64,000 nucleotides of DNA from a bacterium (GTDB lineage Bacteria > UBA8248), in the NCBI GenBank assembly GCA_965203325.1, contig OZ241875.1:2056812-2120811 (forward strand), in the 5' to 3' direction. Both the position numbers and the translations under genes were made by a program. The notes beneath the pieces are model-generated. The model was not told the origin of the DNA, did no database searches, and saw only the letters and a program-made list of their open reading frames with translations. This document shows positions 3-62,374 of this stretch, piece by piece (within the stretch, counting starts at the first letter, position 1; each line of letters opens with the position of its first letter).

Positions 3-596
3 CGCGACGCCCTGTCGCTCGCGGAAGGGATCGGCGATGCCGACCGGCGTGCTCGTTTGTTCAGCAAAATCGCAGGCGCGCAGGCGAGAGCGGGGAACGT
101 CCGCGACGCCCTGTCGCTCGCGGAAGGGATCGGCGATGACCGTTGGCGTTCCGGCGCGCTCATCGATATCGCGGAGATGCAGACGAAATCGGGAAACGTC
201 CGCCACGCGGCGCAGACCCTCTCCAGGGCCCTGTCGATTGCGGAAAGAATCGGCGATGCCGACCGGCGTGCTCGTTTGTTCAGCGAAATCGCAGGTGCGC
301 AGGCGAGAACGGGAAACGTCCGCGACGCCCTGTCGCTCGCGGAAAGGATCGAAGATGACCACTGGCGTGCCGTCGTGCTCAGCGAAATCGCGGAGATGCA
401 GGCGAAATCGGGGAACGTCCGCGAGGCGACGCAAACCCTCTCCAGGGCACTGTCGATTGCGGAAAGGATCGGAGATGACTCCTCTCGCGCCGGCGTGCTC
501 ACCGCCATCGCAGAGATGCAGGCGAAAGCCGGGAGTATTGCCCAGACAAACCGTCCGGCCGTGGCCGGAAAGGAGAAGGCGGGCCAGCGGAAGTGA
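3..596 (+). CDS. helical tandem-repeat protein (TPR/HEAT-like), 5' end outside window
   Basis: Frame is open from the window edge to TGA at 594-596. Units of ~33 aa and ~40 aa alternate (GNVRDALSLAEGIGD.. / GNVR.A.QTLSRALSIAERIGD..). The nucleotide unit tccgcgacgccctgtcgctcgcgga recurs at 1, 100 and 319. Confidence 0.55.
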   Translation, partial: RDALSLAEGIGDADRRARLFSKIAGAQARAGNVRDALSLAEGIGDDRWRSGALIDIAEMQTKSGNVRHAAQTLSRALSIAERIGDADRRARLFSEIAGAQARTGNVRDALSLAERIEDDHWRAVVLSEIAEMQAKSGNVREATQTLSRALSIAERIGDDSSRAGVLTAIAEMQAKAGSIAQTNRPAVAGKEKAGQRK

Positions 597-6538: not shown

Positions 6539-8650
6539 ATGTTCTGCGAAGATCAAGAGACGTTCAATGCCCTAAACGCCCTCGATTCGGCGATTCGGAG
6601 TCGCGGCGGTCCTCTAGTTGTCTGGCTGGGTGCTGGCACTAGTGCGTGGATGGGCTACCCATTGTGGCGCGAGCTCGCCGAACAGATGCACAGGCGGTTT
6701 ACAAGAGAGGTGAGCACCTACTCCAAGAACACTACCTCGGCTCTATTGGCGGCGGAAGCATACCCAAAGCTTTTTCAGGAGATGCGGACATGCGATTCAG
6801 AGCTCTATTTCTCTTGTCTCCTTGACGCTTTTTCGTATCGGCAACCAACCCCTGTTTATAGACGAATGCTGCATGCATTGGAGCAGGTCAAGCCGACGGG
6901 CATCGTGACCACCAACGTTGACGAATCCCTTGAGCATCACCTAATCGGACGGGAGACCGTTCAACGGTCCGACGCCGAACGTATGCGGCAACTCCTAGCC
7001 GAAGGCAGGGCGTTCATATGCAAGCTGCATGGTTCGATCAGCGCGGTCGAGACCATGGTGTTCTCCAAACAGGACTACGACGACATTCAAATTGACATCC
7101 CGTTCCTGAATTCTCTTCACTCGGTCCTCTCCAATTCAACGGTTCTGTTTCTAGGCTATGGTTTCCAAGACCAACACGTGATTTCCGCCCTTCAACACAG
7201 TTCGACAACCCATCCGCTATTTGGAACGGGTCCGCATTTCATCGTCACTCCAGAAGGCTCGTCCGAAATTCCTCTAGGTGTGAGACGTATCAGTTATGTC
7301 GCCGACCCGCCGGACCATCGAAGCGCATTGTTGACACTTGAAGCCGTTGCGGACATCAGGCCTCAGCCGGGTCCGACCACATCAACTCCGGGGGATACCG
7401 GGATTGAGGAACGCAACGGTGAGAGCATCTGCTTCATTGGAGAGTTACTACCTCCGGGTAAGTTCACCACGTCGCAAACGGTGACCGCGGAGAACAGTTC
7501 GGGAACGCGGGAACTTATCATCGGTGAAGGCTATGTAGATGGCGAAGTGGTTCTTCACGACTACTCGGCATTGCACGATATCGTCGTCGGTTTGGTCTGT
7601 TTCGATGTGATTTGCCTGTCGATCGGCCACTTGGGAAAGTTGCACAACCTGCTGGGTTCAGCTTGGTTTTGGGAGTTCGTCGAAGCCGGGGCGATACGGC
7701 TGGTCATCCCACCGCCAGAACCCGTCGTGGTCTTTCCGGAACCGGGCGCTCTGGTAGGCCATATAAAGGAAATCAAGTTGGGCTCTAGGGCTAGTTCCAC
7801 AGAGTCGTTCGAGGAGATGACGGTCGCCGAGAGAATTCGTCGGCATCTGACGCCCATACCGGGCAAAGAAGAAATAGCGGAAAGACAGATGGACATGCTT
7901 GAGTCGTCTTCAGTCGATCTGACGCATGCGCTAAAGACAAATCAAGTGTCGGACAGAACTCGCAGTGCCATGATGCATCCCTCCATTCGTCGACTCTTGG
8001 GCATTAGCGGGGGAACACCGCGAGGCGCCGTCCCACGATGGTTGGTCTTTCCCGTATTGCGCTTGGCTGGAGTAGTAGGCAAGGGAGTTATATGTCAACA
8101 AACCAACGCCAGCGCTACGCGGCTACTCTTGGGGTGTGAAAAGCTGGCGAGCGTAGCTTTCTCCGCTTCTGCCGGGACGGAGTGGGCCGACGACGCGGCA
8201 AGCTACGTCTTGACCGGTCGGTTTAATTCGGATCTGGGTGCTTTGATCGAGGAGCAGCCAGAACTGTTACGTGGAGTATTGCACTTTAGGGAATCGGCCA
8301 GTGGGAAGAGTTTTCGTCGCGAGGTAGCAGAGCGCCTTGCGACAAACGAGGGGGGGCAGGTAATTACGGCGGTGAATGCCGGACTGCGTCAAGCGCTATC
8401 GATGTCCGTGCTTGAACAAGCTCGGGATCAACTCTCAGGGCTGTTTATGACGCGAGCCTCTGGCCCGCGTCTTCGACCTGCCGTATGGGGCGACCTTCGT
8501 AACGGGGAAGAACGAGTGGCTAGCTGGCGAAAGCGAAGCCGAGTTCTGCTGGATGATCTATGCAAAGCCAATAACTTAAAACCCTATGAAATGTGCCCCT
8601 GTGGGTCAGGAGAAAAGGTCAAGTTCTGCTGTATTTTGGCACTTCGGTGA
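6539..8650 (+). CDS. SIR2-like (SIR2_2-type) domain protein with unknown central region and C-terminal SEC-C zinc motif
   Basis: 703-aa ORF with an AAGGA RBS 8 nt upstream. Motifs occur in order: VVWLGAGTSAWMGYPLW, GIVTTNVDESLEH, CKLHGSI, VFSKQDYDD, VLFLGYGFQDQHV. The C-terminus is YEMCPCGSGEKVKFCC. The gene is visibly AT-richer than its flanks. Confidence 0.85.
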   Translation: MFCEDQETFNALNALDSAIRSRGGPLVVWLGAGTSAWMGYPLWRELAEQMHRRFTREVSTYSKNTTSALLAAEAYPKLFQEMRTCDSELYFSCLLDAFSYRQPTPVYRRMLHALEQVKPTGIVTTNVDESLEHHLIGRETVQRSDAERMRQLLAEGRAFICKLHGSISAVETMVFSKQDYDDIQIDIPFLNSLHSVLSNSTVLFLGYGFQDQHVISALQHSSTTHPLFGTGPHFIVTPEGSSEIPLGVRRISYVADPPDHRSALLTLEAVADIRPQPGPTTSTPGDTGIEERNGESICFIGELLPPGKFTTSQTVTAENSSGTRELIIGEGYVDGEVVLHDYSALHDIVVGLVCFDVICLSIGHLGKLHNLLGSAWFWEFVEAGAIRLVIPPPEPVVVFPEPGALVGHIKEIKLGSRASSTESFEEMTVAERIRRHLTPIPGKEEIAERQMDMLESSSVDLTHALKTNQVSDRTRSAMMHPSIRRLLGISGGTPRGAVPRWLVFPVLRLAGVVGKGVICQQTNASATRLLLGCEKLASVAFSASAGTEWADDAASYVLTGRFNSDLGALIEEQPELLRGVLHFRESASGKSFRREVAERLATNEGGQVITAVNAGLRQALSMSVLEQARDQLSGLFMTRASGPRLRPAVWGDLRNGEERVASWRKRSRVLLDDLCKANNLKPYEMCPCGSGEKVKFCCILALR

Positions 8651-29016: not shown

Positions 29017-29133
29017 GGTCAAACGCGATTGATGAATGAGTGTTTGACACGACTGATGAGGGAGCGATCGCTAGCGAGCGAGATTAGAATCGGCTCGCAA
29101 TTTCTTCCTCATCGCCCGGAATTGACCACTGCC

Positions 29134-29269
29134 GTCATTCCGGCGAAAGCCGGAATCCATTTGCGGATGTGAATGAATGAACGGCGGCGTTTCATACCCC
29201 GGCCGATGCGCGAGGACCCTGACGAAAGGAAAAAGGCGAAAAATGGATTCCGGCTTTCGCCGGAATGAC
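29134..29269. repeat. 136-bp MITE-like element, copy 1
   Basis: Terminal inverted repeats GTCATTCCGGCGAAAGCCGGAATCCAT / ATGGATTCCGGCTTTCGCCGGAATGAC. The internal sequence is shared with copies 2 and 3. Confidence 0.85.
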
Positions 29270-29709
29270 GATTTTGTGGATTAAGCCTGAGCGAGAATAG
29301 AGGGTTCACTCCCCCCTTGAGGGGGAGTCAGTGAGCTAAGGGCGCAAGCCCGCAAGCGAACTGGTGGGGGGAGCTTTTCTGTGGCATGTCCCCCCACCAC
29401 ATCGGCCTTCGCACAAACCGCTCGGCCTCTGTGACTCCCCCTCAAGGGGGGAGTTGATACCTCCTCTTCCCTGGATGGCAAAACTCTCAAGGGGTTGTTG
29501 AAAAACCTTGTTCCGTGATTCGGCGAATGGAACCAACCGGGGAAAGGGTCCGTAGGGACAGGTCGCGACCTGTCCCTACAAAACCAACTCCTCTGGCCCC
29601 CTTGTCAGGGGGTAAAGGCGATGCGGTTTTGTTCGTCATTCCGGCGGTGGATAATTCCGAGCGAGGGGGAGTTTTTCAACAAGCCCATTAGGGGGGCTGT
29701 TCTATTCCC

Positions 29710-31395: not shown

Positions 31396-31426
31396 GTTGT
31401 TATCCTTGAAAGAGTGGGTGTTCACC

Positions 31427-31562
31427 GTCATTCCGGCGAAAGCCGGAATCCATTTTTACGCCTTTTGCCTTTCGTCATGGTTCCCGCACATCGGCGGGGA
31501 ATAAAAAGCCGCCGTTCATTCGCCCGCATCCGCAAATGGATTCCGGCTTTCGCCGGAATGAC
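31427..31562. repeat. 136-bp MITE-like element, copy 2 (inverted relative to copy 1)
   Basis: Same terminal inverted repeats. The interior is the reverse complement of copy 1. Lies 32 bp upstream of the ThDP-enzyme start. Confidence 0.85.
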
Positions 31563-31703
31563 GAACGAAAACCAAATTCGTCATCAGCCCCGAGAAGAGA
31601 GCACCACATACCGTAGCGACAGGTCGCGCTATAATAAACGCAAAGCCTCCCGCAAAGGGTTTTCGAACCACCCTCTCCAGGCTGGAGTGGTTACACCATT
31701 CTA

Positions 31704-41348: not shown

Positions 41349-41969
41349 CTAATGATTCGCTATCTGTATGCTCAGGAGTTTTCTTATAAGTTCGCATAAA
41401 GGCTCAAGAATTTCTTCATACGGCTCATCCGGTGCTTTTTGCTTTGCTATATTATCCGCGTGTTGAAGAGTTGAAACGTATTGATCCCTGTGCTGGCGTA
41501 AAAGTTCCGGCAATATCGTTTTTCCACTTATCCATCCCCCGGATTTGATGCAAAGTACAAAATAACAGCAAGCGCGCGCCGTTCTCCCGTTTCCATTGAT
41601 GAATGGATGAATTTGATTAAGTTTCCACAGAACATAAGCAGAGATAACGAAAGGATCCGCATTCTCCCAGTGCTGATTTACAAGATTCACGAAATCATCC
41701 ATCAGGGCTTGCACGCGATAATGCGCCGGTGGGTGATAGCTGCCAACCGTAACCTCGCAAGGACGATACTCTCCTGCATTCACATGAAGGCAAGCAATGG
41801 CGTGGTAATTCAGCGCCTTGATCAAGGCTTGAGAAAGGAAAGGACGTTGCGTCCTTAGTGCAACCGAAACCATAGACTCCAGGAAATGAAGCTGCCTATC
41901 CGTATTGAGGTATTCCAGCGTTCTGTAAATTTCATCATCTTCCGTTCCTGTCAGTTCGTACAAAATCAT
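41349..41969 (-). CDS. Fic family protein (Fido domain)
   Basis: Canonical active-site motif HPFINGNGRTAR. AT-rich gene. ATGA overlap with the upstream small ORF. Confidence 0.9.
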   Translation of the reverse strand: MILYELTGTEDDEIYRTLEYLNTDRQLHFLESMVSVALRTQRPFLSQALIKALNYHAIACLHVNAGEYRPCEVTVGSYHPPAHYRVQALMDDFVNLVNQHWENADPFVISAYVLWKLNQIHPFINGNGRTARACCYFVLCIKSGGWISGKTILPELLRQHRDQYVSTLQHADNIAKQKAPDEPYEEILEPLCELIRKLLSIQIANH

Positions 41970-42157
41970 TCATGCATGTTTCCGTAACGCTCATCAATAT
42001 AATCCTCAACCTCCTTCTTGGTCGAATCATCATCCCTGCCGACCACGGAGAGAATGTAAGATATCCTTTGCGCTCTTTTTTCCTCGGGGGTCATCGATCG
42101 CTGGGCCGCTTTCTTCATACGTGCGATAAGTTCATCATTTTCAGCAACTTGACTCAT
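41966..42157 (-). CDS. small protein translationally coupled to Fic (candidate antitoxin)
   Basis: GAGGGAG sits 7-8 nt before the ATG at 42157. 63 aa: MSQVAENDELIARMKKAAQRSMTPEEKRAQRISYILSVVGRDDDSTKKEVEDYIDERYGNMHE. Its stop overlaps the Fic start. Confidence 0.6.
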   Translation of the reverse strand: MSQVAENDELIARMKKAAQRSMTPEEKRAQRISYILSVVGRDDDSTKKEVEDYIDERYGNMHE

Positions 42158-42267
42158 TGCTTTCTCCCTCTTCGGCATCAAGTCGACTTTATTGTATATT
42201 AGGTCAAATATAATAGAAAACCGACTTCCAGGAAACCGCCTGCTCCCTCATCCCAAATACCATTTTT

Positions 42268-42327
42268 AGAAAAGCAGGGGCCTCGTGAGAGGCCCCGCAC
42301 CCGGCGGGCGAAACCACCGGGGGAGTG
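42268..42327 (-). ncRNA. candidate ~60-nt structured RNA / terminator-containing leader, copy A
   Basis: Hairpin 1 CCCGGTGG-tttcgc-CCGCCGGG (42300-42321). Hairpin 2 GGGGCCTC-tcac-GAGGCCCC (42277-42296) followed by a U-tract. A homologous copy lies at 44855-44916. Confidence 0.4.
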
Positions 42328-42333
42328 AGAATC

Positions 42334-42362
42334 AGGATGCCGCTATCCGGAGCATCCGTCAA
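42334..42362 (-). promoter_or_regulatory. promoter-like element of module copy A
   Basis: On the minus strand: TTGACG (42362-42357), exactly 17 nt, then CATCCT (42339-42334). The same architecture occurs in copy B. Confidence 0.4.
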
Positions 42363-42410
42363 ACAGAGAAAAAGAAGCCTCCCGTTCCACATCGCCTCTG
42401 TAACGTCGGC

Positions 42411-42719
42411 TCATAGTGAACCTACATCGGCCAGCCGTTTCTCCCGGTCACGCTCCCTGCGAACCTGCGCCAGTTCGTAGCTCGCCTGCATGCGCATCCA
42501 GTGGTCGGCCGTCCCCCAGCCGATGCCCTCCAGCGCAAGCGCCATGTTGGCGGACACCCCCGCCTTTCCGTTCAGCAGGCGAGAAAGCGTCCCGCGCTCA
42601 CATCCCAGATGAGCCGAGGTCTCGGTGACGCTCCAGCCGACCTCTTCTATGCTCTCGCGGATCAGTTCGCCCAGATGCGGCGGGTTCAGCATCGGGCCGA
42701 CACGTTCACTCTCGCTCAT
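42411..42719 (-). CDS. higA: HigA-family antitoxin (XRE HTH)
   Basis: MLNPPHLGELIRESIEE.GWSVTETSAHLGCERGTLSRLLNGKAGVSANMALAL. AAAGGAGGA RBS. Confidence 0.88.
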   Translation of the reverse strand: MSESERVGPMLNPPHLGELIRESIEEVGWSVTETSAHLGCERGTLSRLLNGKAGVSANMALALEGIGWGTADHWMRMQASYELAQVRRERDREKRLADVGSL

Positions 42720-42737: not shown

Positions 42738-42815
42738 TCAGTGGTAGTCAATCAGGTCTACGTCGACGGCTTCGCCGTCCTCGAAGCGGAACACCACGCG
42801 CCAGTTGCCGGAGAC
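42738..42815 (-). pseudogene. higB: 3' remnant of higB (plasmid-maintenance killer) gene
   Basis: Frame gives *VSGNWRVVFRFEDGEAVDVDLIDYH*. Only the last 25 codons survive, and the stop lies 18 nt before the higA start. Confidence 0.65.
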
Positions 42816-42879
42816 TCATACGCTACCAGCACCACGACGAATTCATTAACGACCTTGACGATGTAGCACACCCTGCAGG

Positions 42880-44128: not shown

Positions 44129-44131
44129 GCC

Positions 44132-44195
44132 TCACGCCCCCATGACGAGCGCGAGTTCGCGCACCAGCTTCGCGGCGGCGGCGCTCAGGGCGGGC
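44132..44195 (-). pseudogene. orphan diverged copy of the last ~20 codons of speB
   Basis: Encodes ..ALSAAAAAKLVRELALVMGA*, compared with ..GASAIAASKIVRELALVMGA* at the real speB end. About 58 aligned nt carry ~10 mismatches. Confidence 0.7.
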
Positions 44196-44221: not shown

Positions 44222-44845
44222 TCACCAGTTGGACGGCTTGGTGATGTTGGTGCCCGGAATCGGGGACGGAAGCTGATTCTTTCGCAGCGCTCTCTTTTGA
44301 ATTCGGCGGGAGAAATCGGCATGGGCCATTAACTCTCGAGACGGATGACTCGCTCCGGGTGTTACCAGTCCAATCCATTTTCTTTTGTGCTTTTTCACAA
44401 GACGCATGCCCTCGGTGATATCGCTGTCGTTCGTAACTACTACCGCACAGTCGTAGTCATCCAGCCATGCATCGTTCAAGAGATGTACGGCGAGATTGAC
44501 ATCCGATCCCTTTTCCTCGGTCCTGACGACATTCACCAGCCTTCGCCTGTTGCCGGTATCAGCAAGCGGTGCTTGAATCTTATGCGTCAGAAAATGCCCG
44601 AAATAAACTTCGACCTCCGGGCAATGATGTCGCAATGCGCGCAGATAGGCATTTTGGCGCCGTGGCTCGGATGGGTCGTTCGGGCGCGCCGAAACGCGCG
44701 CCGTGAAGTATTTGATTTTGAGGATATCGTGGTGCGGCTTCAATACGTCACGGAACAGACCAGAGAGATCGAGCCATTTGAACGGCGTTTGCTTCAGCGA
44801 GCGGTAGTAGAGGTTGAATCCATCGACGTAGATATAAGTCCGCAT
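44222..44845 (-). CDS. NYN domain (LabA/DUF88-like, PIN-fold) protein
   Basis: Motifs YIYVDGFNLYY, EEKGSDVNLAVHLL, AVVVTNDSD. AT-richer than its neighbours. Confidence 0.88.
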   Translation of the reverse strand: MRTYIYVDGFNLYYRSLKQTPFKWLDLSGLFRDVLKPHHDILKIKYFTARVSARPNDPSEPRRQNAYLRALRHHCPEVEVYFGHFLTHKIQAPLADTGNRRRLVNVVRTEEKGSDVNLAVHLLNDAWLDDYDCAVVVTNDSDITEGMRLVKKHKRKWIGLVTPGASHPSRELMAHADFSRRIQKRALRKNQLPSPIPGTNITKPSNW

Positions 44846-44854
44846 GTCTTACCT

Positions 44855-44916
44855 AAAAAAAGCAGGGCCTCATGAGAGGCCCCGCACCCAGCGGTCGAAG
44901 CCACTGGGGGAGTAGT
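44855..44916 (-). ncRNA. candidate ~60-nt structured RNA / terminator-containing leader, copy B
   Basis: Hairpin 1 CCCAGTGG-cttcga-CCGCTGGG (44887-44908). Hairpin 2 GGGCCTC-tcat-GAGGCCC (44865-44882) followed by U7. The NYN ATG lies 9 nt after the U-tract. Confidence 0.4.
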
Positions 44917-44922
44917 GAAAAA

Positions 44923-44951
44923 ACTATGCCACTGTTCCGAGTCTTCGTCAA
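44923..44951 (-). promoter_or_regulatory. promoter-like element of module copy B
   Basis: On the minus strand: TTGACG (44951-44946), 17 nt, then CATAGT (44928-44923). Confidence 0.4.
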
Positions 44952-44969
44952 CAGGAAAAATTTACCCCC

Positions 44970-45827
44970 TCACGCCCCCATCACCAGCGCGAGTTCGCGG
45001 ACTATCTTCGAGGCGGCGATGGCGCTTGCACCAGAGGAGTCCCACTCGGGGGCCAGTTCCACCACGTCGGCGCCGACGATGCGCGCGCCCGAATCGTTCA
45101 GGACCGATATGCAATCGATGAGCGCATCGAAGCCGGGGCCGCCCGGTTCGGGGCTGCCGGTTCCGGGCATCTCGCCGGGGTTCACGACATCCACGTCGAC
45201 TGTGAGGTATATGGCGCGATCACCCGTTTCCTTGAGCGCTGCCGATACGGCCTCGGGACGCAAAGGCCTCAGCGTATCGTTCGCCCGCATCCATTCGAAT
45301 TCCTCTCTAGTGCCGGAGCGGACGCCGAACTGATGGAGCGGCCCGACGCCCGCAAGTGCCAGAACCCGCCGCATCACGCAGGCGTGCGAGAGTCGCTCTC
45401 CCAAGTAGTCCTGTCTCAAATCCGCGTGGGCGTCCCACTGGAACACGGCCAGACCGGGGTAGACGCCGAGCGCCGCCGCCACGGCGGGCAGGCTCACCAG
45501 ATGCTCCCCGCCCAGGAATATGGGACGCTTGCCCGCCCGAAATATCCGCGAAGCTTCGGCCTTGATGGAATCGAGCACGGCTGCGGTATCGTCGGACGCA
45601 AAATCAACGTCTCCCAGATCGCACAGGGCGTCGTCGCTCAAGTCTTTATCCAGTTCCGGGCTGTAGGTTTCGAGACAATCCGACGCTTCCCGGATGGCGT
45701 CGGGCCCAAAACGCGCGCCGCGCCTGAAACTCGCCGTCTCATCGAAGGGGCATCCCAGCAGAGCGACGCGCGCAGATTCGAAGGGGTTTTGAGCGCAGAG
45801 AAATCGCGGGCGGGCCTCCCCGCCCAT
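44970..45827 (-). CDS. speB: agmatinase (ureohydrolase family)
   Basis: Arginase-fold metal motifs: ..FLGGEHLVS.., ..DAHADLR.., ..YLTVDVDVVNPG... Located in a polyamine operon. Confidence 0.88.
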   Translation of the reverse strand: MGGEARPRFLCAQNPFESARVALLGCPFDETASFRRGARFGPDAIREASDCLETYSPELDKDLSDDALCDLGDVDFASDDTAAVLDSIKAEASRIFRAGKRPIFLGGEHLVSLPAVAAALGVYPGLAVFQWDAHADLRQDYLGERLSHACVMRRVLALAGVGPLHQFGVRSGTREEFEWMRANDTLRPLRPEAVSAALKETGDRAIYLTVDVDVVNPGEMPGTGSPEPGGPGFDALIDCISVLNDSGARIVGADVVELAPEWDSSGASAIAASKIVRELALVMGA

Positions 45828-48272: not shown

Positions 48273-48698
48273 TATCTCACCCGCTCGAAGTCCGGCCGCT
48301 CAAGAGCCTCCGTGAACCGGCACGGCTGCCAGTCCGGTGGATTCGGCCGCACGATTCCGCAGGCTGTGAGGGGGTCGGGCGGTCGAACCGGCTGTTTAGC
48401 AAACAATGATTGCAAAAATTTGTTTCCTAAACAACAGGGTGAAACATATATAGTTTTTGGGCGGCCGTGTCAACGATTTCACGGGGCGGAAAAGGCCTCC
48501 GCACGCCTTCGCCGTCATTTCGAAGTTCAACGATCTATGAAGGGCCATCATCCGCGTGTAGGGGCCGCATACATGCGGCCCTGCCTTTTCGCCTTCACAC
48601 CGCGGGTCGCATATATGCGACCCCTACACTCGAATTGACATCCCGACCAAGGTGAAGGTCAAACACGACCCGACACATGCGTCCCTTTGCTTTTGAGC

Positions 48699-48834
48699 GT
48701 CATTCCGGCGAAAGCCGGAATCCATTTGCGGGTGCGGGTGAATGAACGGTGGCGTTTCATTTCCCGCCGATGCGCAAAAACCCTGACGAAAGGCAAAAGG
48801 CGTAAAAATGGATTCCGGCTTTCGCCGGAATGAC
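48699..48834. repeat. 136-bp MITE-like element, copy 3
   Basis: Same terminal inverted repeats and interior as copy 1. Confidence 0.85.
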
Positions 48835-49062
48835 GGCCAATAACGGACCACGTGCGGCCACTAGGGCAGGGCGGCCACGGGGGGCCGCCCCTACGGATCG
48901 TATTGTTACGTTCGGTTTTTGTAGGGACAGTCCCCTGTGCCTGTCCGAGGTCGCCGACAAGGGCTTTTCAACAACCCCGCCCGGATGACGATTGCGCGGC
49001 GTTTTGCTATTTTATGGACGAGTCGGCTATCACCCATCCATACCGTCTTCATGGAGATAGAA

Positions 49063-49320: not shown

Positions 49321-49371
49321 CCCTCACGGGGCTTTTGAAAAAGCCGTCCTTGGCCAGAATTGACCACCGCC

Positions 49372-49512
49372 GTCATTCCGGCGAAAGCCGGAATCCATTT
49401 TCAAGCAGAATGACAATACGCCGGCTTTTCATCTCCTCGTCATCGGCACGAATCGATCAGAAAAGAAAAAACAAAGACAAAGCAAATGGATTCCGGCTTT
49501 CGCCGGAATGAC
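49372..49512. repeat. MITE-like element, copy 4 (same termini, divergent interior)
   Basis: The terminal inverted repeats are identical to the other copies. The interior is A-rich and unrelated. Confidence 0.75.
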
Positions 49513-49751
49513 GAACAAAACCCCACTGTCCCGTAGGGACAGGCCTCCGTGCCTGTCCTGAAGAGGGACAACCACAGGGGGGTTGTCCCTACGCAGCCCC
49601 CGCGTTTCGAAACGAACACGTAGCAGGGCGGCCCTTTTTTCGCCTGATTCCGGCGTGGCGGCGTTTCACCGAATCGCGAAAGAAGATACCCTCTCTAAAA
49701 TCACATTTCGCCGCACCCGAGGGCGCGGCTTTGAGCCGGGAGGAAAGCGCC

Positions 49752-60465: not shown

Positions 60466-61251
60466 CTAAACCATCCAGGCCCCGCCTGCGACGACCATTC
60501 CCTGTCCGGTGACGTTTCTGCTCTCATCGCTCGCAAGATAGACCGCCATGTGGCCCACGTCGTCCGGCGTCTGTTCGCGCCCCAGGGGAACCGTCGCCTC
60601 GACATACTCGTCGAAAACCCGTCTCGCGGACCTGTCCGTATCCGCGCCGATGATGACGCCGTGGCCCTTCTCCCAGATGTTCGTCCACAAAAGACCCGGG
60701 TTGATCGCGTTTACGTTCACGTTGTAGGGAGCCATCTCCCTGGCGAAGCTCATGGTGAAGTTCATGCACGCCGCCTTGGACGCGGAATAATGCGGCACGT
60801 CCGCGTTCGCGCGCCTCGCGGCGAGCGAGGCCAGATTGATGATTTTCCCGTACCCCCGCTCGCGCATGTGGGGAGCAATCGCCCGGCACATCAGAAAAAC
60901 GCCCGCCGCGTTGACTGCGAACACGGCGTTCCATTCATCCAGCGTTATCCGGTCGATGGGCCTTCCCACGAGCGCGGCCCCCCTGCCGTGGCAGTTCACC
61001 AGAATGTCGACATGCCCCATCCGCTCGACCGCCGTCCGGGCGATGCTCTCGGCGTCCGCCTCGCTCGACACGTCCGCCGCTAGGGCGAAATGCGCCCCTT
61101 CGCCCGCGTCGTCGAGTCCTCCTTGAGTCGCCTCGTCACTCAAGTCGACCACGCAAATTTGCGCGCCCTCCCGGGAGAAAGCGCGGACGATGGCCCGGCC
61201 GATTCCACCGCCGCCGCCCGTGACGACCGCCTTCTTCCCTTCCAGGCGCAT
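60466..61251 (-). CDS. SDR family oxidoreductase (copy 1)
   Basis: TGGGGGIG cofactor loop and YSASK catalytic motif. Confidence 0.88.
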   Translation of the reverse strand: MRLEGKKAVVTGGGGGIGRAIVRAFSREGAQICVVDLSDEATQGGLDDAGEGAHFALAADVSSEADAESIARTAVERMGHVDILVNCHGRGAALVGRPIDRITLDEWNAVFAVNAAGVFLMCRAIAPHMRERGYGKIINLASLAARRANADVPHYSASKAACMNFTMSFAREMAPYNVNVNAINPGLLWTNIWEKGHGVIIGADTDRSARRVFDEYVEATVPLGREQTPDDVGHMAVYLASDESRNVTGQGMVVAGGAWMV

Positions 61252-61312
61252 TCGCATTCCTCCCTGCAGGAAACCTGGACTCATGACACCGGGGTTGTTT
61301 CGTTCGACCTGC

Positions 61313-62098
61313 CTAGGCCATCCAGGCCCCGCCTGCGAGGAGCAGGCCCTGCCCCGTGACGTTTTTGCTCTCATCGCTCGCGAGATAAACCGCCATGTGG
61401 CCCACGTCGTCGGGCGTCTGTTCGCGGCCCAGGGGAACCGCCGCCTGGACGAACTCGTCGAACACCTGTCTCGCGGGCCGGTCCGTCTCCGCCCCGATGA
61501 TGACGCCGTGGCCCTTTTCCCAGAGATTCGTCCACAACAGACCCGGGTTGATCGCGTTCACGTTCACGCTGTAGGGGGCCATCTCCTTGGCGAGACTCAT
61601 GGTGAAGTTCATGCACGCCGCCTTGGAGGCGCAGTAATGCGGCACGTTTTCGTTCGCGCGCCTCGAGGCGAGCGAGGCCAGGTTGATGATTTTCCCGTAT
61701 CTGCGTTCGCGCATGTGGAAGGCGATGGCGCGGCACATCAGGAACACGCCCGTCGCGTTCACGCTGAAAACGGCGTTCCATTCCTCGAGCGTTATGTTAT
61801 CGATGGGGTTTCCCATGAGCGCCGACGCCCTGCCGTGGCAGTTCACGAGTATGTCGATATGCCCCATCCGCCCGATGGCGGTGCCTATGATGTTCTCCAC
61901 TTCTGACTCGCTCGTCACGTCCGCCGCCAGGGCGAAGTGCTCCCCCTCGCCGGCGTCGTCGAGCCCCTGCCCAGCTACTTCGTCACTGACGTCGACCACG
62001 CAAATCCGCGCGCCCTCGCGGGCGAACGCCCGGATGATGCCCCGACCGATTCCGCCGCCGCCGCCCGTGACGACCGCTGTTTTTCCCTCCAAACGCAT
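61313..62098 (-). CDS. SDR family oxidoreductase (copy 2, tandem paralog)
   Basis: TGGGGGIG and YCASK motifs. Collinear with copy 1 at the protein and nucleotide level, with an 847-bp period. Confidence 0.88.
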   Translation of the reverse strand: MRLEGKTAVVTGGGGGIGRGIIRAFAREGARICVVDVSDEVAGQGLDDAGEGEHFALAADVTSESEVENIIGTAIGRMGHIDILVNCHGRASALMGNPIDNITLEEWNAVFSVNATGVFLMCRAIAFHMRERRYGKIINLASLASRRANENVPHYCASKAACMNFTMSLAKEMAPYSVNVNAINPGLLWTNLWEKGHGVIIGAETDRPARQVFDEFVQAAVPLGREQTPDDVGHMAVYLASDESKNVTGQGLLLAGGAWMA

Positions 62099-62374
62099 TC
62101 GCATCCCTCCTTGATGAAACGCCACTTATTGAACGGAGAAAACCGCTCACACACCCTTCGAGACTGAAACGAGATATTCCTTCCTGAAACACGATGTCCG
62201 CCGATTCTAGCAAGATTCGAACGGGGTGAGTATCTCCTGACCCCAACGCCTGAAACTCAACCTCGGGGAGTTTCCCCCGCACGGGGAGAATGGTATTCTC
62301 CCCCCGTTTCGAAACCCTTTACACAACGACCGCAGACGTCGTCAGGACGTCCCTCAAAACGACAGGAGCATGAA

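What the first reader, a model, noticed from the sequence alone, without database searches (positions are those of the whole stretch)
42268..42385. Conserved promoter-hairpin-terminator module precedes two unrelated toxin-type cassettes (Fic operon and NYN gene): candidate small RNA or conditional-termination leader
About 110 bp at 42268-42385 and 44855-44965 align at roughly three quarters identity by eye, although the flanking genes are unrelated. Both copies lie directly after the stop of an upstream gene (higA, speB) and directly 5' of an AT-rich cassette on the same strand. Each has TTGACG, exactly 17 nt, then CAT..T; a single-stranded CUCC(CC); and an 8-bp hairpin with a compensatory change (G:C in copy A, A:T in copy B, with different loops). 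Each ends with a GC-rich tetraloop hairpin plus U-tract. In copy B the NYN start codon lies only 9 nt after the U-tract, so NYN expression requires terminator read-through. This layout recalls type III toxin-antitoxin loci (RNA gene, then terminator, then toxin) or an attenuator that keeps toxic effectors silent until triggered. I know of no described element matching it.
Basis: partly seen in the sequence, partly recalled or inferred. Interest (0 to 1): 0.8.

Follow-up and report, generated by a model that had tools for sequence, protein, structure and literature searches.

The report
Small RNA gene partnered with NYN nuclease
The repeated 110-bp module is a real, previously unannotated small-RNA gene (own promoter, two hairpins, terminator) that across many bacterial phyla, plasmids and prophages always travels with one family of NYN ribonuclease genes, in a layout like RNA-antitoxin (type III) toxin-antitoxin systems. 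The copy in front of the Fic genes is a leftover whose NYN gene was lost.

Summary
Two copies on the minus strand (42266-42362 and 44853-44951) share a TTGACG-17-CATnnT promoter, a C-rich 5' tail, an 8-bp hairpin, and a GC hairpin with a U-tract. There are no other copies in the 64 kb.

The module is not a general leader for toxin cassettes. It is a roughly 60-nt small-RNA gene specifically linked to a 207-aa NYN (PF01936, PADLOC candidate HEC-09) nuclease family.

A covariance model finds it beside NYN genes in Nitrospinota-like MAGs, Alpha- and Gammaproteobacteria, Leptospira plasmids, a Mycobacterium abscessus prophage and an Actinobacterial plasmid:
- 98.6% of cells are paired.
- 14 of 17 pairs show compensatory changes.

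The RNA usually sits 8-15 nt upstream of the NYN start. In Actinobacteria it is convergent or divergent with its own promoter, so it acts as an RNA gene and not merely a leader. E. coli plasmids carry four tandem 33-nt units before one terminator.

Copy A is an orphan: related genomes still show NYN remnants behind it. Fic homologues elsewhere lack the module.

The most likely mechanism, which is inferred, is an RNA antitoxin or inhibitor of the NYN RNase, with the terminator setting the RNA:protein ratio. It is not in Rfam 15 and I found no description in the searchable literature.

The parts
44946..44951 (-). -35 hexamer TTGACG of RNA gene copy B
   Evidence: A TTGAC(A/G) at the same distance is present upstream of nearly all family members.
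44923..44928 (-). -10 hexamer CATAGT (preceded by TGn) of copy B, 17-nt spacer
   Evidence: (9/12 match, extended -10 TG).
44853..44916 (-). Predicted ~60-nt NYN-associated small RNA, copy B: 5' CUACUCCCCC tail, hairpin 1, linker UGC, hairpin 2, U-tract. The 5' end is inferred from the promoter.
   Evidence: R1 73.9 bits and R2 74.4 bits. Fold z-score -5.2.
44887..44908 (-). Hairpin 1 of copy B (CCCAGUGG / CUUCGA / CCGCUGGG)
   Evidence: All 7 modelled pairs covary across 33 sequences.
44855..44885 (-). Hairpin 2 (GCGGGGCCUC UCAU GAGGCCCUGC) plus U7: an intrinsic terminator and the conserved base of the RNA
44222..44845 (-). Intact 207-aa NYN nuclease gene. The start codon is 9 nt after the U-tract, with no room for a separate promoter.
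   Evidence: PF01936 at 36 bits. PADLOC HEC-09 E=9e-43. At least 7917 homologues. NYN fold.
44969..45026 (-). 3' end of speB: left copy of the ~55-nt direct repeat flanking the RNA+NYN cassette
44130..44184 (-). Right copy of the speB-3'-end repeat. It restores the original speB-stop / next-gene-start junction (TGAGGCATG), which marks the RNA+NYN cassette as an insertion.
42334..42362 (-). Promoter of copy A: TTGACG (42362-42357), 17 nt, CATCCT (42339-42334)
42266..42329 (-). Orphan NYN-associated small RNA gene, copy A: hairpin 1 at 42300-42321, hairpin 2 at 42277-42296, U-tract at 42268-42273. Its NYN gene has been lost.
   Evidence: R1 78.4 bits. Folds. Orthologous copies in L004 and L005 are followed by NYN remnants.
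41349..42181 (-). Fic cassette: small antitoxin-like ORF (likely start ATG 42157) plus a Fic/DOC protein. It is low in GC, is a secondary occupant of the site behind copy A, and is not part of the module.
   Evidence: Homologous cassettes lack the module. The cassette is inverted and decayed in L001 and L003.
42411..42719 (-). HigA antitoxin gene upstream of copy A, with a truncated higB remnant at ~42741-42838. It is a neighbour in the same variable islet, not part of the module.
   Evidence: TIGR02607 at 68.8 bits. Sequence.

Best explanation
Each copy is a small-RNA gene. A sigma-70-type promoter drives a transcript of about 60 nt. The transcript has a single-stranded C-rich 5' tail, whose last CCC opens hairpin 1. 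A GYGC linker follows, then a GC-rich hairpin 2 with a U-tract that terminates most transcripts.

The RNA is the obligate genetic partner of a 207-aa NYN (PIN-like) ribonuclease, the PADLOC candidate HEC-09.

In the usual layout (copy B) the NYN ribosome-binding site and ATG start 8-15 nt after the U-tract. NYN is therefore made only from the minority of transcripts that read through, and the RNA is always in excess.

I infer that the RNA binds and neutralises the NYN RNase. This resembles the RNA antitoxins of type III systems (ToxI, AvcI, the AbiF RNA). When transcription stops or the RNA is degraded, for example on phage infection or plasmid loss, NYN would be freed to cut RNA.

RNA+NYN is a compact cassette of about 0.8 kb. 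In the window it was inserted at the 3' end of speB.

Copy A is an orphan RNA gene that once led a second NYN paralogue. That NYN decayed and a Fic cassette now occupies the site.

**Shown:** the RNA family, its structure, its promoter and terminator, its exclusive linkage to NYN, its variable orientation and copy number, and the orphan status of copy A.

**Inferred:** transcription in vivo, binding, inhibition, and toxicity.
For: **Linkage to NYN**
- All 6 genome hits and the 1 genuine metagenome hit to the core pattern are followed by an NYN start or an NYN remnant.
- Starting instead from NYN proteins, the RNA is found next to homologues at 40-93% identity in every locus of the clade examined.

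**Structure**
- On 33 sequences, 98.6% of cells are paired.
- 14 of 17 pairs change on both sides.
- The covariation score is 0.684, against 0.225 when shuffled (0 of 500 shuffles reach it) and at most 0.17 when the partners are slid.

**Promoter**
- 60% of copies match TTGACA-16..18-TATAAT at 9 of 12 positions or better at a fixed distance, against 1.6% of control sites.

**Independent RNA gene**
- It is convergent, ending next to the NYN stop codon (overlapping it in the prophage), in M. abscessus prophage prophiGD43A-1 (58 bits) and in a Paenarthrobacter plasmid (51 bits). In the prophage, the divergent L036 and L067 I read an upstream TTGACA-type promoter.
- It is divergent in L036 and L077.

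**Type III-like arrays**
- E. coli 4.6-kb plasmids have a promoter, four 33-nt hairpin units, one terminator, an SD and then NYN.
- Two units occur in L021 and L059.

**Decay asymmetry**
- Intact RNA with a decayed NYN is seen at window copy A, L003, L004 (twice), L005, L055/56, L057 and L058.
- No intact NYN of the clade lacks the RNA.

**Protein**
- NYN fold with conserved acidic residues.
- Found on 450 plasmids and in prophage defence-type positions.
Against: - There is no expression, binding or toxicity data.
- Payne et al. cloned an HEC-09 representative with its native promoter region and saw no phage protection; the passages I read do not mention toxicity either way.
- Most members have a single RNA unit, not tandem repeats.
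- There is no pseudoknot and no evident processing site.
- The toxin fold is not ToxN-like.
- The decay asymmetry could also reflect the small mutational target of the RNA, or selection on any two-part system.
- The alignment used for pair counts was fitted to the model.
Confidence: 0.5

Rival explanations
1. A purely cis-acting leader. The promoter-proximal terminator insulates and attenuates NYN transcription. The hairpins are the 5'-UTR target for NYN autoregulation or mRNA stabilisation. The terminated short RNA has no function of its own.
For: - In about 85% of loci the RNA is the 5' leader.
- The SD and ATG lie 8-15 nt after the U-tract, with no intervening promoter.
- NYN/PIN-like RNases such as Regnase-1 are known, from general knowledge, to cleave stem-loops in their own mRNA.
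Against: - The same RNA is encoded convergently or divergently in Actinobacterial loci, with a TTGACA-type promoter read in L036, L037 and L067. There it cannot be the NYN leader.
- Orphan copies stay intact after NYN is lost.
- Tandem arrays exist.
- No conserved alternative (antiterminator) fold was seen.
- 5'-tail:SD pairing is no better for cognate than for non-cognate pairs (permutation p=0.99).
Confidence: 0.2
2. The RNA is a positive cofactor of NYN (a guide, scaffold, activator or specificity determinant) or a decoy that mimics the nuclease's natural hairpin substrate. It is not an inhibitor in a toxin-antitoxin pair.
For: - Strict co-occurrence and co-orientation flexibility.
- Conserved sequence at the base of hairpin 2 and in the NUUCGN loop beyond what termination needs.
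- No toxicity is mentioned for HEC-09 in the passages read.
Against: - The terminator-before-ORF architecture and the tandem repeats are hallmarks of RNA antitoxins.
- The observed pattern of orphan RNAs but no orphan NYN is better explained if the RNA is protective.
Confidence: 0.17
3. One reading: a generic, portable promoter-hairpin-terminator module that gates diverse toxic cargo (Fic as well as NYN).
For: In this window copy A does sit 5' of a Fic cassette on the same strand.
Against: - Every other copy found is next to NYN or an NYN remnant.
- Orthologous copy-A sites in L004, L005, L001 and L003 retain NYN 5' remnants. In L001 and L003 the Fic fragment is inverted and disrupts the RNA gene.
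- Fic homologues at 50-62% identity keep their small upstream ORF but have no module.
Confidence: 0.05
4. A generic intergenic repeat (REP/MITE, integron attC, or a shared terminator) with no specific function.
For: It is a short, hairpin-rich intergenic repeat found between horizontally acquired cassettes.
Against: - There are only two copies in 64 kb.
- Its position and strand are fixed relative to NYN across phyla.
- A conserved promoter lies upstream.
- Compensatory changes preserve two separate hairpins.
- No integrase or attC-like R/L boxes were seen in the sequence read (not searched for systematically).
Confidence: 0.03

Closest known systems
Classical type III toxin-antitoxin systems (toxIN, cptIN, tenpIN)
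   Same: - The gene order is promoter, antitoxin RNA, Rho-independent terminator, then an endoribonuclease gene, so the RNA outnumbers the toxin.
- They occur on plasmids, prophages and chromosomes.
- Some NYN loci have tandem repeats of about 33 nt, e.g. E. coli plasmids (criteria as quoted in PMC12283969).
   Different: - The protein has an NYN/PIN-like fold, not the ToxN/AbiQ fold.
- Most members, including both window copies, have one non-repeated two-hairpin RNA.
- The RNA gene can be convergent or divergent.
- No pseudoknot or processing site is evident.
- Toxicity and binding are untested.
Non-repeat RNA-antitoxin systems classed as type III: AvcID (AvcI sRNA + AvcD deaminase) and AbiF (HEPN protein + structured ncRNA)
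   Same: A single structured small RNA is encoded next to a protein effector, and the pair functions in phage defence (as summarised in PMC12283969).
   Different: The effector families differ (deaminase, HEPN) and the RNAs are unrelated. There is no experimental link to NYN.
HEC-09, a PADLOC candidate defence gene (Payne et al. 2024, bioRxiv 10.1101/2024.01.29.577857)
   Same: The window NYN matches the HEC-09 model over its full length (E=9.4e-43). It has the same MARF1-like NYN fold.
   Different: HEC-09 was described as a single protein gene and no partner RNA is mentioned. It gave no protection against the phages tested. The window copy is not embedded in an Hma system.
Transcription attenuators and riboswitch-type leaders
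   Same: A promoter-proximal intrinsic terminator lies immediately upstream of the ORF, so expression requires read-through.
   Different: There is no conserved mutually exclusive fold. The RNA works from other orientations. Orphan copies and arrays exist.
Eukaryotic NYN/PIN-like RNases that recognise stem-loops (MARF1; Regnase-1 from general knowledge)
   Same: The catalytic fold is the same. There is a precedent for hairpin recognition by this fold.
   Different: They have no dedicated partner RNA gene and a different biology.

Membership tests
Type III toxin-antitoxin (Blower 2012 criteria as quoted in PMC12283969) | Toxin gene immediately preceded by a Rho-independent terminator, with both under one upstream promoter | tested here: met
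   In copy B the order is TTGACG-17-CATAGT, a 10-bp GC hairpin, U7, then the NYN ATG 9 nt later. The same layout occurs in about 85% of family loci.
Type III toxin-antitoxin (Blower 2012 criteria as quoted in PMC12283969) | Tandem direct repeats of the antitoxin RNA between promoter and terminator | tested here: not met
   The window copies have a single unit. Repeats exist only in some relatives: E. coli plasmids have about 4 units, of which TRF scores 2.6 as 33-nt repeats, and L021 and L059 have 2.
Type III toxin-antitoxin (Blower 2012 criteria as quoted in PMC12283969) | Toxin with ToxN/AbiQ-type endoribonuclease fold | tested here: not met
   The AlphaFold model (pLDDT 86.9) matches NYN domains (2qip, MARF1 5yaa/6fdl). 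No ToxN-like hits were found.
Type III toxin-antitoxin (functional definition) | Protein is toxic and is neutralised by direct binding of the RNA | not testable with these tools
   This needs expression and rescue assays and RNP purification. The only indirect support is the decay asymmetry.
NYN domain family (Pfam PF01936) | HMM match above the gathering score, conserved acidic active-site residues, PIN-like fold | tested here: met
   36 bits against a 24.2 cut-off. D8, E110/E111, D115, D140 and D142 are invariant in 18 sequences. Fold.
PADLOC HEC-09 | Full-length match to model PDLC04163 | tested here: met
   E=9.4e-43, covering residues 2-207 against profile positions 3-202 of 203.
PADLOC HEC-09 | Embedded within an Hma or other defence system | tested here: not met
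   The window neighbours are speB, a membrane ORF, an EEP-family protein, a HigA/higB remnant and Fic. No Hma genes were seen.
Any Rfam 15 family | Covariance-model match | tested here: not met
   There was no hit at gathering score in the window. Nothing relevant appeared at E<=10 around the copies. Nothing but RNAI and tRNA was found in seven diverse NYN loci.
Transcription attenuator / riboswitch leader | Function depends on being in cis in the 5' leader, with a conserved alternative structure competing with the terminator | tested here: not met
   Convergent and divergent arrangements exist. Both hairpins covary as independent helices. No cognate 5'-tail/SD pairing was found. Alternative folds were not searched exhaustively.
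Dispersed intergenic repeat (REP/MITE/attC) | Many copies per genome, with no fixed gene partner | tested here: not met
   There are two copies in 64 kb, and every copy elsewhere is next to NYN or an NYN remnant.

The most novel reading that the evidence does not exclude
The RNA and NYN together form a new, widespread family of RNA-protein toxin-antitoxin / abortive-infection modules, type III-like but with a PIN-like NYN toxin. A 60-nt two-hairpin sRNA, sometimes arrayed, neutralises the nuclease. The RNA partner has been overlooked, and on E. coli plasmids it has even been annotated as coding sequence. This could explain why HEC-09 has no assigned function. The module is present on Klebsiella and E. 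coli plasmids, Leptospira plasmids and mycobacterial prophages.
Probability: 0.45. Interest if true: 0.8.

Novelty: new variant of a known kind. Interest (0 to 1): 0.68.

Why it matters
- The NYN family is very large: at least 7,900 homologues at E<=1e-10 among the 8,000 candidates scored. It sits on 450 sequenced plasmids, including Klebsiella, E. coli, Xanthomonas and Leptospira, and in prophages. It is still listed only as an unvalidated defence candidate, HEC-09.
- Recognising that it always comes with a dedicated small RNA gives a concrete, testable two-component model: RNA antitoxin plus PIN-like RNase.
- If validated, it would add a new toxin fold and a new RNA family to the short list of RNA-antitoxin systems (toxIN, cptIN, tenpIN, AvcID, AbiF).
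- It corrects gene-start mis-annotations.
- It explains orphan copies such as the one in front of Fic.
- It supplies a covariance model with which the element can be annotated genome-wide.

Tried and rejected
1. **Integron attC or generic intergenic repeat.** Rejected. There are only two copies and a fixed NYN partner, and I saw no integrase or attC-like boxes in the sequence I read.
2. **A small ORF on the opposite strand** (GGGGGAG-N14-ATG, 'MPL...'). It is not conserved in L002 or other loci. This was judged by reading the sequence.
3. **The C-rich 5' tail as an anti-Shine-Dalgarno pairing with the NYN ribosome-binding site.** Cognate pairs are no more stable than non-cognate pairs: -5.3 vs -6.2 kcal/mol, permutation p=0.99.
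4. **Rfam.** No family matched.
5. **Exact-sequence look-ups of the window's speB, NYN and Fic proteins.** None is on record.
6. **Metagenome pattern scan.** It gave 4 loci, of which 3 are chance matches (coding sequence and a CRISPR array) and only L008 is genuine. The same pattern gave nothing in viral contigs.
7. **PDB sequence search with the NYN profile.** No hit. Only the fold search worked.
8. **Literature.** Searches for NYN plus type III TA or RNA antitoxin found nothing relevant. One broad search was uninformative.
9. **Module R1 against the more distant NYN subfamilies** (Xanthomonas, Klebsiella IncR, P. syringae). There was no significant hit, although by eye they have the same promoter-hairpin(s)-terminator-SD layout with different sequences.
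10. **Taxon of the window.** It was not determined. The closest named NYN relative is from Nitrospinota.

Full report
**1. Observation**

All genes around the finding are on the minus strand. Read 5' to 3', the order is:
- the polyamine operon: speH, pyruvoyl arginine decarboxylase, speE, speB
- copy B
- NYN
- a small membrane ORF
- an endonuclease/exonuclease/phosphatase-family gene
- a truncated higB remnant
- higA
- copy A
- a small ORF plus Fic
- a convergent HAD hydrolase gene

The alignment score is more than 10 SD above random window segments. Core strings of 25-29 nt occur only twice in the window, with 0 expected.

- TTGACG, 17 nt, then CATCCT or CATAGT
- a single-stranded CUCCCCC
- an 8-bp hairpin with G:C against A:U at the fourth pair
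- a GC tetraloop hairpin plus U-tract
- the NYN ATG 9 nt after the U-tract

These rest. The promoter/terminator scan independently called the copy B promoter and both terminators.

**2. What the module is attached to**

An exact-pattern scan of one genome per species returned six loci. In all six the module is followed within 10-25 nt by an NYN start (MRTYIYVDGFNLYY...) or by a decayed remnant of one. One of these is an Arenicellales gammaproteobacterium in an unrelated genomic context. The looser metagenome scan gave one genuine hit, again directly before an NYN gene, and three chance matches.

Going the other way, the window NYN has at least 7,917 homologues at E<=1e-10. Upstream regions of homologues at 67-70% identity carry the same module. 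These come from Rhodospirillaceae, an unnamed gammaproteobacterium, Thiotrichales, Defluviicoccus and unnamed MAGs.

Among 39 NYN loci from viral or proviral contigs, at 27-62% identity, most show the same plan by eye and by folding.

The NYN protein:
- matches Pfam PF01936
- matches the PADLOC candidate HEC-09 over its full length
- folds as an NYN domain, with VPA0982 and MARF1 as top structural matches

It also occurs on 450 sequenced plasmids and in a Mycobacterium abscessus prophage.

**3. The RNA family**

A covariance model built from 16 diverse copies gave hits of 36-83 bits next to NYN in nearly all loci. It gave only the two known hits in the window, with the next best at 13 bits. 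A second-generation model gave the same answer.

On 33 aligned copies:
- 98.6% of cells form standard pairs
- 14 of 17 pairs show changes on both sides
- the covariation score is 0.684, against 0.225 +/- 0.015 in shuffles (0 of 500 reach it) and at most 0.17 when partners are slid by 1-3 columns

The caveat is that this alignment was fitted to the model. However, the independent MAFFT/RNAalifold analysis already showed 13 of 17 compensatory pairs.

Upstream, a TTGAC(A/G) -35 and a TAnnnT-like -10 sit at a fixed distance. 60% of copies match at 9 of 12 positions or better, against 1.6% of control positions.

The consensus plan is:
- promoter
- about 7-10 nt
- a C-rich tail whose last CCC opens hairpin 1 (7-9 bp, loop often NUUCGN)
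- a GYGC linker
- hairpin 2, with a sequence-conserved base GCGrGGC...GCCyyUGC
- a U-tract
- a G-rich SD
- the start codon 8-15 nt after the U-tract

No Rfam 15 family matches, either in the window or in seven diverse NYN loci.

**4. It is an RNA gene, not only a leader**

In M. abscessus prophage prophiGD43A-1, the locus lies between the integrase and the immunity repressor. There, and in three related proviral contigs and a Paenarthrobacter plasmid, the same RNA scores 51-58 bits with a model built from same-strand, upstream copies, most of them proteobacterial. In these loci it is encoded on the opposite strand. It converges on NYN, ends next to the NYN stop codon (overlapping it in the prophage) and is preceded by a TTGACA-type promoter, which I read in L037 and, with a weaker -10, in L067.

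In L036, and weakly in a Streptomyces and an M. intracellulare plasmid, it is divergent.

The only feature shared by the tandem, convergent and divergent layouts is the RNA itself. This argues for a trans-acting RNA product.

Copy number also varies. E. coli ColE1-type 4.6-kb plasmids have a promoter, four tandem 33-nt hairpin units, one terminator, GGAG and then the NYN start. PGAP annotates these repeats as part of the NYN ORF. L021 and an E. coli 3.5-kb plasmid have two units.

More distant NYN subfamilies keep the promoter-hairpin(s)-terminator-SD layout with different RNA sequences. These are on Klebsiella IncR and ColE1 plasmids and on P. syringae and Xanthomonas plasmids.

**5. Copy A and the Fic cassette**

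Comparison with five related MAG loci shows that copy A is orthologous to modules next to the same convergent HAD gene in L004 (two copies) and L005. Each of these is still followed by about 60 nt of an NYN 5' end with stops or a lost start.

In L001 and L003 the site holds four things in order:
- the copy-A promoter
- an inverted fragment of the small-ORF/Fic cassette
- hairpin 2
- an NYN remnant of about 40 nt

These observations rest.

Fic homologues at 50-62% identity in viral contigs keep the small upstream ORF but have no module.

So copy A is an orphan RNA gene and the Fic cassette, which is low in GC, arrived later. Orphan RNA genes with decayed NYN also occur in L003 (the copy-B site), L055/56, L057 and L058. 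No intact NYN of the clade was found without the RNA.

**6. The cassette is an insertion**

The last 55 nt or so of speB (45026-44969) are repeated at 44184-44130, directly after NYN. There they recreate a speB-stop/next-gene-start junction. In L005 a HigBA cassette at the same site is likewise followed by a 186-nt copy of the speB end.

The stretch between speB and the HAD gene is therefore a variable islet of toxin-antitoxin-type cassettes.

**7. Mechanism**

Shown:
- a conserved, structured, promoter-equipped and terminator-ended RNA gene
- its exclusive linkage to an NYN nuclease
- in the common layout, NYN translation signals that can only be reached by terminator read-through

Inferred:
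- the RNA accumulates in excess and inhibits NYN by binding, in the manner of type III systems
- release follows loss of RNA synthesis

The architecture matches the operational criteria for type III loci quoted in PMC12283969, namely a promoter, RNA repeats, a terminator and a toxin. That paper lists the known RNA-antitoxin families as toxIN, cptIN, tenpIN, AvcID and AbiF. None of them is NYN-based.

The alternatives are a purely cis leader, a cofactor or decoy RNA, a generic toxin-gating module, and a dispersed repeat. They are weighed in the rival list. The anti-SD pairing idea failed a cognate-versus-non-cognate test.

**8. Novelty and verdict**

HEC-09 was reported as a single-gene candidate with no protection against the phages tested and with no RNA partner mentioned. 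It is still treated as unvalidated in 2026. Searches for NYN together with type III or RNA antitoxin found nothing.

I therefore rate this as a new variant of a known kind: a type III-like RNA-protein module with a new toxin fold and a new RNA family.

Of its interpretation:
- the 'small RNA / type III-like' half is supported for NYN
- the 'shared by unrelated toxin cassettes' half is not supported

My confidence that the element is an NYN-partnered small-RNA gene is about 0.9. My confidence that the RNA is an inhibitor or antitoxin is about 0.45-0.5.

Noticed in passing
window 44969-45026 and 44130-44184 (minus strand): The last ~55 nt of speB are duplicated (about 87% identical) directly after the NYN gene. 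This recreates a speB-stop/next-gene-start junction (TGAGGCATG). The RNA+NYN cassette therefore looks like an insertion flanked by target-derived direct repeats.
   Followed up: partly
L005 858-912 and 1647-1832; L004 1708-1752: In related MAGs other cassettes sit at the same speB 3' end, and each is followed by another copy of the speB terminus (up to 186 nt). One is an intact HigBA and another is a 1.4-kb insert. The site looks like a recurrent insertion hot spot.
   Followed up: partly
L001 (reverse-complemented) 7084-7400; L003 7490-7850: At the copy-A site of two close relatives, a fragment of the small-ORF/Fic cassette lies inverted between the RNA promoter and hairpin 2. It destroys hairpin 1. 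A ~40-nt NYN remnant follows.
   Followed up: partly
L060 (E. coli plasmid NZ_CP122630.1) 1576-1752: RefSeq/PGAP starts the NYN CDS at 1576, so the four 33-nt RNA repeats and the terminator are annotated as coding sequence. The homologous start is the TTG at 1753. The same applies to about 10 E. coli plasmids.
   Followed up: partly
window 42741-42838 (minus strand): Only the C-terminal ~30 codons of a HigB toxin (...VSGNWRVVFRFEDGEAVDVDLIDYH*) remain upstream of an intact HigA. This is another case of a decayed toxin with a retained antitoxin in the same islet.
   Followed up: no
window 29109-29270, 31402-31563, 48674-48835, 49347-49513: There are four copies of a ~160-nt element bounded by inverted repeats (CGTCATTCCGGCGAAAGCCGGAATCCATTT ... 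AAATGGATTCCGGCTTTCGCCGGAATGACG). It looks MITE-like.
   Followed up: no
window 9-534 and 979-2879: These are long arrays of 99-nt (33-codon) periodic repeats, plus a 219-nt repeat. They are consistent with a large ankyrin/TPR-type repeat protein gene.
   Followed up: no
window 60466-62113: Two segments spaced 847 nt apart are 84-89% identical, which suggests a tandem gene or domain duplication.
   Followed up: no
window 24044, 34101, 34243, 48958: The short motif TTTTTCAACAACCCC occurs within four ~37-nt repeats. Its meaning is unknown.
   Followed up: no
L059 (E. coli 3461-bp plasmid NZ_CP091696.1) 1967-2167: This tiny NYN plasmid also encodes a VbhA-family (Fic antitoxin) protein. NYN and Fic-related genes are thus neighbours on an unrelated replicon as well.
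   Followed up: no
L011 3169-3241: A tRNA gene lies about 45 nt downstream of the NYN stop in the TARA Rhodospirillaceae locus. The RNA+NYN cassette there may sit at a tRNA-adjacent integration site.
   Followed up: no
L014-L019: In the gammaproteobacterial loci the NYN gene is followed immediately by a VapB-like/PSK antitoxin-type gene pair and a DDE transposase. This is another toxin-antitoxin islet context.
   Followed up: no
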